A stretch of DNA of 64,000 nucleotides from Escherichia coli (GTDB lineage Bacteria > Pseudomonadota > Gammaproteobacteria > Enterobacterales > Enterobacteriaceae), in the NCBI RefSeq assembly GCF_003334315.1, contig NZ_QOWR01000006.1, one strand, 5' to 3'. The position numbers and the translations under genes are program-made. Under the pieces are notes generated by a model. It did no database searches and was not told the origin of the DNA. It worked only from the letters and a program-made list of their open reading frames with translations. Shown here one piece after another: positions 5,397-27,459 of the stretch (its first letter is position 1; every line of letters starts with the position of its first letter).

Positions 5397-7469
<2,073 letters not shown>

Positions 7470-7478
7470 CTATTAAAT

Positions 7479-7514
7479 GGCTGATCGGACTTGTTCGGCG
7501 TACAAGTGTACGCT
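7479..7514 (+). promoter_or_regulatory. fabB control region: FadR-like site ggctgatcggacttgtt followed by FabR-like palindrome ggcgtacaagtgtacgct
   Basis: Resembles the fabA/fabB FadR activator site and the AGCGTACA-containing FabR operator as I recall them; lies ~50-80 bp upstream of the fabB ATG. Confidence 0.6.
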
Positions 7515-7561
7515 ATTGTGCATTCGAAACTTACTCTATGTGCGACTTACAGAGGTATTGA

Positions 7562-8782
7562 ATGAAACGTGCAGTGATTACTGGCCTGGGCATTGTTTCC
7601 AGCATCGGTAATAACCAGCAGGAAGTCCTGGCATCTCTGCGTGAAGGACGTTCAGGGATCACTTTCTCTCAGGAGCTGAAGGATTCCGGCATGCGTAGCC
7701 ACGTCTGGGGCAACGTAAAACTGGATACCACTGGCCTCATTGACCGCAAAGTTGTGCGCTTTATGAGCGACGCATCCATTTATGCATTCCTTTCTATGGA
7801 GCAGGCAATCGCTGATGCGGGCCTCTCTCCGGAAGCTTACCAGAATAACCCGCGCGTTGGCCTGATTGCAGGTTCCGGCGGCGGCTCCCCGCGTTTCCAG
7901 GTGTTCGGCGCTGACGCAATGCGCGGCCCGCGCGGCCTGAAAGCGGTTGGCCCGTATGTGGTCACCAAAGCGATGGCATCCGGCGTTTCTGCCTGCCTCG
8001 CCACCCCGTTTAAAATTCATGGCGTTAACTACTCCATCAGCTCCGCGTGTGCGACTTCCGCACACTGTATCGGTAACGCAGTAGAGCAGATCCAACTGGG
8101 CAAACAGGACATCGTGTTTGCTGGCGGCGGCGAAGAGCTGTGCTGGGAAATGGCTTGCGAATTCGACGCAATGGGTGCGCTGTCTACTAAATACAACGAC
8201 ACCCCGGAAAAAGCCTCCCGTACTTACGACGCTCACCGTGACGGTTTCGTTATCGCTGGCGGCGGCGGTATGGTAGTGGTTGAAGAGCTGGAACACGCGC
8301 TGGCGCGTGGTGCTCACATCTATGCTGAAATCGTTGGCTACGGCGCAACCTCTGATGGTGCAGACATGGTTGCTCCGTCTGGCGAAGGCGCAGTACGCTG
8401 CATGAAGATGGCGATGCATGGCGTTGATACCCCAATCGATTACCTGAACTCCCACGGTACTTCGACTCCGGTTGGCGACGTGAAAGAGCTGGCAGCTATC
8501 CGTGAAGTGTTCGGCGATAAGAGCCCGGCGATTTCTGCAACCAAAGCCATGACCGGTCACTCTCTGGGCGCTGCTGGCGTACAGGAAGCTATCTACTCTC
8601 TGCTGATGCTGGAACACGGCTTTATCGCCCCGAGCATCAACATTGAAGAGCTGGACGAGCAGGCTGCGGGTCTGAACATCGTGACCGAAACGACCGATCG
8701 CGAACTGACCACCGTTATGTCTAACAGCTTCGGCTTCGGCGGCACCAACGCCACGCTGGTAATGCGCAAGCTGAAAGATTAA
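7562..8782 (+). CDS. fabB: 3-oxoacyl-ACP synthase I (KAS I) FabB, 406 aa
   Basis: Recognised sequence; active-site Cys in [12 protein letters not shown] and His in [19 protein letters not shown] at 7551-7555. Confidence 0.97.
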
Positions 8783-23250: not shown

Positions 23251-23937
23251 ATGTTGTATGGGTTTTCAGGTGTTATTTTACAGGGTGCGCTCGTCACGCT
23301 GGAGCTGGCTATCAGCTCTGTAGTGCTCGCTGTAATCATCGGTTTAATTGGCGCTGGCGGTAAGCTCTCGCAAAATCGGCTTTCGGGGCTGATTTTCGAA
23401 GGGTACACCACGCTGATTCGTGGCGTGCCGGACTTAGTGTTGATGCTGCTGATTTTCTACGGTTTGCAGATTGCGCTAAACACGGTGACGGAGGCGATGG
23501 GCGTCGGGCAGATTGATATCGATCCGATGGTCGCTGGTATTATCACTCTCGGTTTTATCTACGGTGCTTATTTTACCGAAACGTTCCGTGGTGCTTTTAT
23601 GGCAGTGCCGAAAGGACATATAGAGGCGGCGACGGCGTTCGGTTTTACTCGTGGGCAAGTGTTTCGGCGGATCATGTTTCCGGCGATGATGCGTTACGCC
23701 CTGCCAGGCATTGGCAACAACTGGCAGGTGATCCTCAAATCTACCGCACTGGTTTCGTTACTCGGCCTGGAAGATGTGGTCAAAGCCACCCAACTGGCAG
23801 GCAAAAGTACCTGGGAACCGTTCTATTTCGCCATCGTCTGTGGCGTGATTTACCTGGTTTTCACCACTGTTTCCAATGGTGTGCTGCTGTTCCTTGAGCG
23901 CCGCTACTCCGTGGGTGTGAAGAGGGCTGACCTGTGA
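23251..23937 (+). CDS. hisQ: Histidine/Lys/Arg/Orn ABC transporter permease HisQ, 228 aa
   Basis: Recognised sequence; multi-TM permease. Confidence 0.95.
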   Translation: MLYGFSGVILQGALVTLELAISSVVLAVIIGLIGAGGKLSQNRLSGLIFEGYTTLIRGVPDLVLMLLIFYGLQIALNTVTEAMGVGQIDIDPMVAGIITLGFIYGAYFTETFRGAFMAVPKGHIEAATAFGFTRGQVFRRIMFPAMMRYALPGIGNNWQVILKSTALVSLLGLEDVVKATQLAGKSTWEPFYFAIVCGVIYLVFTTVSNGVLLFLERRYSVGVKRADL

Positions 23938-26565: not shown

Positions 26566-27459
26566 TCAGCGAACGACATCCGCCAGCGCCTCTTCTAAAT
26601 CGTACCAGCGAAACGCAAAACCCGCTTCTTCCAGCCGTTTAGGCAGCGCGCGTTGTCCACCTAATACCAGTACTGAAGATTCGCCCATTAACAGTCGAAT
26701 GGCGGTCGCGGGGACGCGCAAAATGGCCGGGCGATGCAGCGCATGACCGAGCGCATGGGCAAATTGTTCATTGCGTACCGGGTAGGGCGAAACCATATTA
26801 AATGGCCCGCGCAGCTCGTTATCCAGCAGCCAGAGAATACCGTTGACCATATCATCAATATGAATCCAGGCCAGATACTGCCGACCAGAGCCAATCGGCC
26901 CGCCCAGGCCAAGACGAAACGGCGGCAGCATTTTACCGAGAATACCGCCATCCGGTGCCAGCACTACACCGGTACGCAGCAGGCACACTCGCGTTTTGTC
27001 ACTTTGCGCCCGGCAGGCAATTTCTTCCCAGCGAGCGCAGAGTTTATGGGTAAATTCGTTATGCGGCGGTTCCTCTTCGGTAACCACCACTTCACCTAAG
27101 TCACCATAATAGCCCGTTGCCGAGCCGGAAATGAGTACCGACGGTGGCGTGTCGCTGGCATTAATCAAATCGACCAGTTTTTGCGTGATATTCCAGCGGC
27201 TTTGGCAGAGACGCTCTTTTTGCTCGTGAGTCCAGCGTTTATCAGCAATCGGTTCTCCGGCCAGGTTGATTACCGCATCAACGCCGTTGAGGTTGCTTTG
27301 ATCGGCAAGCCCTTGCCATAGTGTCACCCGAGGGCCGAGAACGGAACTGGCTTTCTGCGGGTTACGCGTCACTACCGTAATTTGATGGCCCAGCTCCAGC
27401 AAACGCGGAATCAAATGGCGACCAATTAATCCTGTCCCTCCGGTGATCACTATGTTCAT
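26566..27459 (-). CDS. yfcH: NAD-dependent epimerase-family protein YfcH, 297 aa
   Basis: N-terminal Rossmann motif [12 protein letters not shown]; recognised sequence. Confidence 0.9.

What the first reader, a model, noticed from the sequence alone, without database searches (positions are those of the whole stretch)
7479..7514. Adjacent FadR-like and FabR-like operators upstream of fabB
ggctgatcggacttgtt closely resembles the FadR activator site, and the adjacent near-perfect palindrome gcgtacaa-g-tgtacgc fits the FabR operator type. The activator and repressor sites abut, consistent with dual control of unsaturated fatty acid synthesis.
Basis: partly seen in the sequence, partly recalled or inferred. 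Interest (0 to 1): 0.2.

Follow-up and report, generated by a model that had tools for sequence, protein, structure and literature searches.

The report
Known FadR and FabR operators of fabB

Summary
Nothing here is new.

- **Location.** The window is E. coli chromosome. Positions 7562-8782(+) encode fabB and 5397-7403(-) encode mnmC. The finding lies in the 158-bp region between them.
- **Sequence.** GGCTGATCGGACTTGTT (7479-7495) is followed after one base by the 18-mer GGCGTACAAGTGTACGCT (7497-7514). Its core, GCGTACA-AG-TGTACGC, has perfect 7-bp inverted arms.
- **Match to bound DNA.** Window 7469-7525 is identical, 57 of 57 bases, to the published "fabB" gel-shift probe used to show FadR binding.
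- **Matrix scan.** A matrix built from six other published FadR sites ranks the site 1st of 127,968 window positions. It ranks 3rd when the near-identical fabA site is left out.
- **FabR match.** The fabA FabR 18-mer finds its best window match here, at 14 of 18 bases.
- **Conservation.** In 13 Enterobacterales from six genera, sampled through a coding motif rather than the operator, 7481-7514 is the most conserved 34 bases of the intergenic region. 31 of 34 positions are invariant, while the flanks diverge and carry indels.
- **Promoter geometry (inferred).** The only promoter-like pair on the + strand is TTGTTC(-35)-17-TATTGT(-10). This puts FadR near -40 and FabR across the spacer and onto the -10.

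Two small corrections apply. The palindrome reads 7+2+7, not 8+1+7. The first two bases of the FadR site (GG) are not conserved.

The parts
7479..7495 (+). FadR (GntR-family) activator site, GGCTGATCGGACTTGTT. The conserved core is CTGATCGGACTTGTT (7481-7495).
   Evidence: It lies inside the published FadR gel-shift probe, matched 57/57. The matrix scan ranks it 1st of 127,968 positions, or 3rd without fabA. All 15 core positions are invariant in 13 Enterobacterales, whereas 7479-7480 vary.
7497..7514 (+). FabR (TetR-family) repressor operator, GGCGTACAAGTGTACGCT. The palindromic core is GCGTACA-AG-TGTACGC (7498-7513).
   Evidence: It is the best window match to the fabA FabR 18-mer, 14/18 on both strands. 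It is marked as the predicted FabR palindrome in the probe of PMC4537474. 15 of 18 positions are invariant across six genera.
7491..7496 (+). Putative fabB -35 hexamer TTGTTC, overlapping the 3' end of the FadR site (inferred).
   Evidence: It belongs to the only + strand -35/-10 pair found in the intergenic region at a relaxed threshold: 7 of 12 matches, 17-bp spacer. Nothing was found at the standard threshold, as expected of an activator-dependent promoter.
7514..7519 (+). Putative fabB -10 hexamer TATTGT, sharing its first T with the last base of the FabR 18-mer (inferred).
   Evidence: Yersinia and Photorhabdus have TAAAGT at the same place, so the TAnnGT pattern is kept. The transcription start was not mapped here.
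7562..8782 (+). fabB coding sequence (beta-ketoacyl-ACP synthase I, 406 aa), the regulated gene.
   Evidence: ORF and translation; RefSeq annotation of identical DNA.
5397..7403 (-). mnmC, the divergently transcribed neighbour that bounds the 158-bp intergenic region.
   Evidence: RefSeq annotation mapped onto the window; translation.

Best explanation
This is the composite regulatory module of the E. coli fabB promoter.

**FadR.** A FadR dimer binds the 17-bp site at 7479-7495, centred about 40 bp upstream of the inferred transcription start and overlapping a poor -35 hexamer. From there it activates a weak sigma-70 promoter. Long-chain acyl-CoA made from exogenous fatty acids releases FadR from the DNA, and activation is lost.

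**FabR.** One base downstream, FabR binds the 18-bp palindromic operator at 7497-7514. This operator fills the -35/-10 spacer and touches the -10 hexamer. FabR represses from there, presumably by excluding RNA polymerase or blocking open-complex formation. [quoted passage not shown]

**What is shown and what is inferred.** Shown here: sequence identity to bound DNA, matrix scores, conservation, and the shared design with fabA. Taken from the literature: binding, ligands, and the direction of regulation. Inferred: the exact -35, -10 and start positions, and the steric mechanism of repression.
For: - The window is E. coli. The DNA around the finding is present in 5,426 of 5,426 complete genomes, between mnmC and fabB.
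- Window 7469-7525 equals the published fabB FadR gel-shift probe, 57/57.
- Wild-type FadR shifts that probe, and fabB-lacZ falls 2 to 2.5-fold in a fadR mutant (PMC4259882).
- The matrix from six published FadR probes ranks the site 1st of 127,968 positions at 17.7 bits. Without fabA it ranks 3rd at 10.2 bits, comparable to held-out fabA at 10.6 bits.
- The fabA FabR 18-mer has its best window match at 7497-7514.
- The fabA and fabB modules align without gaps, with 32 of 36 bases identical and the same spacing.
- An unbiased sample of fabB loci was found through the coding motif GIVSSIGNN. All 12 Enterobacterales in it (Escherichia albertii, Citrobacter, Enterobacter, Superficieibacter, Yersinia, Photorhabdus) keep the block. 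Including the window, 31 of 34 positions are invariant. This is the most conserved 34-nt stretch of the intergenic region, and the flanks diverge with indels.
- Polymorphisms within E. coli fall in the flanks, not in 7481-7519.
- The literature read here supports the roles. FadR activates and FabR represses fabA and fabB. FabR with C18:1-ACP represses fabB and C16:0-ACP relieves repression. ChIP shows FabR at fabB in Salmonella. At fabA, FadR overlaps the -40 region and FabR the -10 region.
Against: No result contradicts this. The limits are:
- The fabB transcription start was not determined here, and the primary papers that mapped the sites were not available to read (Campbell & Cronan 2001; Zhang et al. 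2002; Feng & Cronan 2011). The -40 and spacer positions therefore rest on a weak 7/12 promoter prediction and on analogy with fabA.
- With only the five fad repressor sites, the matrix score is moderate (10.2 bits), and two coding-region positions score higher.
- The FabR 'matrix' is in effect a single reference site, that of fabA.
Confidence: 0.96

Rival explanations
1. The two motifs are chance resemblances in an intergenic region and bind no regulator.
For: 7+7 inverted repeats are common: 29 in the window against about 20 expected. The fad-only matrix gives two higher-scoring positions inside coding sequence. Motif matches alone are therefore weak evidence.
Against: The region is an exact match to DNA that FadR shifts in published gel-shift assays. 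31 of 34 positions are invariant across six genera while the flanks diverge. The same module with the same spacing sits at fabA. ChIP places FabR at fabB in Salmonella.
Confidence: 0.01
2. The conserved block mainly serves the divergent mnmC gene, as its promoter or operator, rather than fabB.
For: The intergenic region is only 158 bp and is shared by both genes. The block would lie roughly 50-60 bp upstream of a candidate mnmC start.
Against: A separate conserved -35/-10-like pair for mnmC lies further left: TTGCGC at 7463-7458 and TAAGAT at 7440-7435. The same block occurs upstream of fabA, which has no mnmC neighbour. fabB-lacZ responds to fadR. In Yersinia a 10-bp insertion separates the block from the mnmC side, yet its distance to the -10 is kept.
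Confidence: 0.02
3. The palindrome acts as an RNA hairpin (attenuator or terminator) rather than as a protein operator.
For: It can in principle form a 7-bp stem with a 2-nt loop.
Against: A 2-nt loop is sterically unfavourable. No terminator-like site was found in 7380-7600. By the inferred promoter geometry the palindrome lies upstream of the fabB start and would not be in the mRNA. The substitutions seen across species (G/T at 7500, G/C at 7506) are not compensated on the other arm, whereas a stem under selection would be expected to keep its pairing.
Confidence: 0.01

Closest known systems
The E. coli K-12 fabB promoter FadR and FabR sites themselves (Campbell & Cronan 2001; McCue et al. 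2001; Zhang, Marrakchi & Rock 2002; Feng & Cronan 2011; cited)
   Same: It is the same locus and the same sequence. The published 57-nt fabB probe matches the window 57/57.
   Different: Nothing. Strain-level polymorphisms occur only outside 7481-7519.
The E. coli fabA promoter FadR/FabR module
   Same: The order (FadR then FabR) and the spacing are the same. The 16-nt CTGATCGGACTTGTTC is identical and 32 of 36 bases match overall. FadR lies at about -40 and FabR over the -10 region (PMC3462791).
   Different: The fabA palindrome is less perfect: AGCGTACAC / GTGTTAGCT against perfect 7-bp arms at fabB. According to the literature, FadR dominates at fabA and FabR at fabB (PMC3896788).
fabB upstream regions of Alteromonadales-like and Vibrionaceae genomes
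   Same: In Colwellia, Rheinheimera and related genomes, a FabR-like palindrome (e.g. AGTGTACAAGTGTACGCT) and a FadR-like palindrome are both present.
   Different: In those genomes the order is reversed, with the FabR-like element upstream of the FadR-like element. Vibrio and Aliivibrio fabB upstream regions lack the module altogether. This agrees with PMC4537474, which says the fabB FadR site is not conserved in Vibrio and Shewanella.
Pseudomonas aeruginosa DesT (FabR homologue) site upstream of fabAB
   Same: It is a TetR-family repressor palindrome controlling genes of unsaturated fatty acid synthesis (PMC3462791).
   Different: No FadR homologue is involved. The repressor site lies upstream of the putative activator site, and the genes form an operon.

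Membership tests
FadR (GntR-family) binding sites of the E. coli fad/fab regulon | A 17-bp site resembling the experimentally bound FadR sites (core CTGGTC/CTGATC ... GAC ... TGTT). | tested here: met
   A matrix from six published probe sites (PMC4259882) scores it 17.7 bits, rank 1 of 127,968. A fad-only matrix scores it 10.2 bits, rank 3, about equal to held-out fabA.
FadR (GntR-family) binding sites of the E. coli fad/fab regulon | The DNA is physically bound by FadR and released by long-chain acyl-CoA. | not testable with these tools
   Published gel shifts use a probe identical to window 7469-7525. Release by acyl-CoA is taken from the literature.
FadR (GntR-family) binding sites of the E. 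coli fad/fab regulon | Activator-type placement, centred near -40 of the target promoter, as opposed to repressor placement over the -10/+1 of fad genes. | tested here: inconclusive
   The only + strand promoter-like pair puts the site centre about 40 bp upstream of the predicted start. The start was not mapped here, and the promoter match is weak at 7/12. The fabA analogue is reported at -40.
FadR (GntR-family) binding sites of the E. coli fad/fab regulon | Conservation in orthologous promoters of related genomes (phylogenetic footprint). | tested here: met
   15 of 15 core positions are invariant in 13 Enterobacterales from six genera. The loci were sampled through a coding motif, independently of the operator.
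FabR (TetR-family) operators (fabA, fabB) | An 18-bp palindromic site of the type AGCGTACACGTGTTAGCT. | tested here: met
   It is the best match in the window on both strands, 14/18, with the next best at 13/18. It has perfect 7-bp inverted arms. It is marked as the predicted FabR palindrome in the published probe.
FabR (TetR-family) operators (fabA, fabB) | Placement immediately downstream of the FadR site, overlapping core promoter elements. | tested here: met
   It is one base from the FadR site and has the same spacing as at fabA. The overlap with the spacer and -10 is inferred from the predicted promoter and from the fabA description.
FabR (TetR-family) operators (fabA, fabB) | Bound by FabR, with binding modulated by unsaturated or saturated acyl-ACP/CoA, and fabB derepressed in a fabR mutant. 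| not testable with these tools
   From the literature only: ChIP and transcriptomics in Salmonella, and ligand effects.
FabR (TetR-family) operators (fabA, fabB) | Conservation in orthologous promoters. | tested here: met
   15 of 18 positions are invariant in 13 Enterobacterales. FabR-like palindromes also occur upstream of fabB in Colwellia, Rheinheimera and an Alteromonadaceae MAG.

The most novel reading that the evidence does not exclude
The FadR/FabR module may also modulate the divergently transcribed tRNA-modification gene mnmC. Its candidate promoter (TTGCGC-17-TAAGAT, 7463-7435 on the minus strand) starts only about 16 bp from the FadR site. That would couple wobble-uridine modification to fatty-acid status. 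Nothing found here supports this beyond proximity, and nothing excludes it.
Probability: 0.05. Interest if true: 0.3.

Novelty: already known. Interest (0 to 1): 0.04.

Why it matters
It matters only as a positive control for the scan. A reader working from raw sequence correctly recognised a classic bacterial regulatory module: opposing activator and repressor sites that set the ratio of unsaturated to saturated fatty acids, and so membrane fluidity. No new biology follows. The cross-genus footprint made here re-derives, with many more genomes, the phylogenetic footprinting that first predicted the FabR site in 2001.

Tried and rejected
- **Standard promoter and terminator scan of 7380-7600.** It found nothing. 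A relaxed scan was needed to locate the weak -35/-10 pair.
- **Primary papers.** I tried to read Campbell & Cronan 2001 (DOI and PMC99677), McCue 2001 (PMC30389), Zhu 2009 (PMC2787350) and Feng & Cronan 2011 (PMC4072462). None is held. Site coordinates relative to the mapped start site could therefore not be checked against the original data.
- **PMC3460868.** It contained no site sequences in its text.
- **Palindrome rarity as evidence.** Rejected, because 7+7 inverted repeats are about as common as chance predicts.
- **Other high matrix hits as extra FadR sites.** The hits at 26594-26610(-) and 23532-23548(+) were rejected because both lie inside long ORFs.
- **RNA hairpin reading of the palindrome.** Rejected; see the rival explanations.

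Full report
**1. What is in the sequence**

- GGCTGATCGGACTTGTT occupies 7479-7495.
- C7496 follows.
- GGCGTACAAGTGTACGCT occupies 7497-7514. Its core, 7498-7513, reads GCGTACA-AG-TGTACGC.

The core has perfect 7-bp inverted arms around a non-symmetric dinucleotide.

A 406-codon ORF starts at 7562. A 401-bp query around the site matches all 5,426 complete E. coli genomes in the collection. In each it lies between genes annotated mnmC and fabB (beta-ketoacyl-ACP synthase I). Mapping that annotation onto the window puts mnmC at 5397-7403 on the minus strand, so the intergenic region is 7404-7561 (158 bp).

**2. Identity with experimentally studied DNA**

Two papers from the Feng laboratory list a 57-nt "fabB" gel-shift probe:

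TCTATTAAATGGCTGATCGGACTTGTTCGGCGTACAAGTGTACGCTATTGTGCATTC

The FadR site is marked in both lists, and the predicted FabR palindrome in PMC4537474 (PMC4259882). The probe matches window 7469-7525 exactly, 57 of 57 bases, and no match is expected by chance.

In PMC4259882 wild-type FadR shifts this probe, while the W60G mutant protein does not. fabB-lacZ expression falls 2 to 2.5-fold in the fadR mutant strain.

**3.

I took the 17-mers of six other published FadR probes: fadL site 1, fadL site 2, fadD site 1, fadD site 2, fadBA and fabA. I built a log-odds matrix from them and scored every 17-mer on both strands of the window.

| Matrix | Score of the fabB site | Rank among 127,968 positions |
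|---|---|---|
| Six sites, including fabA | 17.7 bits | 1 |
| Five fad repressor sites only | 10.2 bits | 3 |

Held-out fabA scores 10.6 bits on the fad-only matrix, about the same as fabB. The two positions that outrank fabB on that matrix lie inside long ORFs and are probably chance.

For FabR the only independent reference site is the fabA 18-mer AGCGTACACGTGTTAGCT. Its best match in the window, on both strands, is 7497-7514 at 14 of 18 bases. The next best match is 13 of 18.

The palindrome would not be significant by itself. There are 29 perfect 7+7 inverted repeats with a spacer of 0-4 in the window, against about 20 expected.

**4. Same module at fabA**

From CTGATCGG onward the fabA and fabB probes align without gaps. 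32 of the first 36 bases are identical, including an identical 16-mer CTGATCGGACTTGTTC. The distance between the FadR and FabR elements is the same.

**5. Phylogenetic footprint**

To sample orthologous promoters without bias toward the operator, I scanned the species-representative genome collection for a degenerate DNA pattern.

Twelve loci were Enterobacterales: Escherichia albertii, two Citrobacter, four Enterobacter, Superficieibacter, two Yersinia and two Photorhabdus. All twelve carry CTGATCGGACTTGTTC(G/A)GC(G/T)TACAA(G/C)TGTACGCTA at 80-100 bp before the ATG.

In an alignment of these loci with the window:
- Positions 7481-7514 have 31 of 34 invariant columns, and the mean majority fraction is 0.99.
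- This is the most conserved 34-nt stretch of the intergenic region. It is more conserved than the first 30 nt of fabB coding sequence (0.94).
- Both flanks average 0.74 and contain indels. One is a 10-bp insertion directly upstream of the block in Yersinia.

Within E. coli the 57-mer is at least 99% identical in 3,081 genomes, 95-99% in 2,317 and 90-95% in 28. In the two variant strains examined, the differences are at 7477-7480 and after the -10, never within 7481-7519.

Alphaproteobacterial and Vibrio fabB loci lack the module. This fits the statement in PMC4537474 that the fabB FadR site is not conserved in Vibrio and Shewanella.

**6. Promoter geometry (inferred)**

The standard scan finds no consensus promoter in 7380-7600. 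With relaxed criteria, the only + strand candidate in the intergenic region is TTGTTC (7491-7496), a 17-bp spacer, then TATTGT (7514-7519). It matches 7 of 12 consensus positions. Yersinia and Photorhabdus have TAAAGT at the -10 position.

This geometry has three consequences:
- The start falls near 7526.
- The FadR site centre (7487) falls near -40 and overlaps the poor -35.
- The FabR operator spans the spacer and shares its last base with the -10.

This is the arrangement described for fabA, with FadR overlapping -40 and FabR overlapping the -10 region (PMC3462791). A weak core promoter is what one expects of an activator-dependent gene.

**7. Mechanism**

From the literature read here:
- FadR activates fabA and fabB and is released from DNA by long-chain acyl-CoA.
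- FabR, a TetR-family protein, represses both genes. Unsaturated acyl-ACP strengthens its binding and saturated acyl-ACP weakens it.
- FabR is the dominant regulator of fabB, and FadR of fabA.
- ChIP with transcriptomics shows direct FabR repression of fabB in Salmonella.

Repression by steric exclusion of RNA polymerase is my inference from the overlap with the spacer and -10.

**8. Rivals**

- **Chance resemblance.** Excluded by the identity with bound DNA and by the footprint.
- **A primary role for mnmC.** Unlikely. A separate conserved -35/-10-like pair exists for mnmC further left, and the same block occurs at fabA.
- **An RNA hairpin.** Unlikely. The element lies upstream of the inferred start and would have a 2-nt loop. 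The substitutions observed are not compensated on the other arm.

**9. Verdict**

The feature is already known in full and interest is very low. The only untested idea left open is that the module might also affect the divergent mnmC promoter. I give this about a 5% chance.

Noticed in passing
window 7434-7467 (minus strand: TTGCGC 7463-7458, TAAGAT 7440-7435): Two further blocks of the mnmC-fabB intergenic region, GCAAATTT and GATCTTAGCGATG, are conserved in Escherichia, Citrobacter, Enterobacter and Superficieibacter. On the minus strand they form a -35/-10-like pair with a 17-bp spacer. This is a plausible mnmC promoter, about 16 bp from the FadR site.
   Followed up: partly
L035 8315-8467(-), L080 8851-9003(+), L018 5776-5928(-), L110 8874-9026(-), L016 11226-11378(-): In fabB upstream regions of Colwellia, an Alteromonadaceae MAG, a gammaproteobacterial MAG and Rheinheimera, a FabR-like palindrome (e.g. 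AGTGTACAAGTGTACGCT) lies upstream of a FadR-like palindrome (e.g. AACTAGTACTACCAGTT). This is the reverse of the order in Enterobacterales. In Colwellia a TATAAT lies about 16 nt after the FadR-like element.
   Followed up: partly
L022 5501-5653(+), L083 6056-6208(-) (also L029, L085): Vibrio and Aliivibrio fabB upstream regions lack the FadR/FabR module. They share a conserved GAAAGCTGACCACTTT about 72 nt before the ATG, a weak FadR-half-site-like sequence scoring only 2-4 bits. Its function is unknown to me.
   Followed up: no
window 26594-26610(-) and 23532-23548(+): These are the next-best FadR-matrix hits, CGCTGGTACGATTTAGA and CGCTGGTATTATCACTC. Both fall inside long ORFs (26566-27459 on the minus strand, 23251-23937 on the plus strand). 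They are most likely chance matches.
   Followed up: partly
window 7477-7480 and 7520: E. coli strain polymorphisms in the promoter are confined to the operator flanks. Position 7477 is A or T (T in Nissle 1917 and in about 2,300 genomes with one mismatch). Strain Ec-U18 has AATGG changed to ATCGT at 7476-7480 and a 1-nt insertion just after the -10.
   Followed up: partly
many alphaproteobacterial loci, e.g. L004, L084, L120, about 296 nt upstream of fabB: A recurring FadR-matrix hit, AAATGGTCGGCTTTTAT, appears at a fixed distance upstream of alphaproteobacterial fabB. Given the constant offset it probably lies in conserved coding sequence of an upstream gene and is not an operator. This was not checked.
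   Followed up: no
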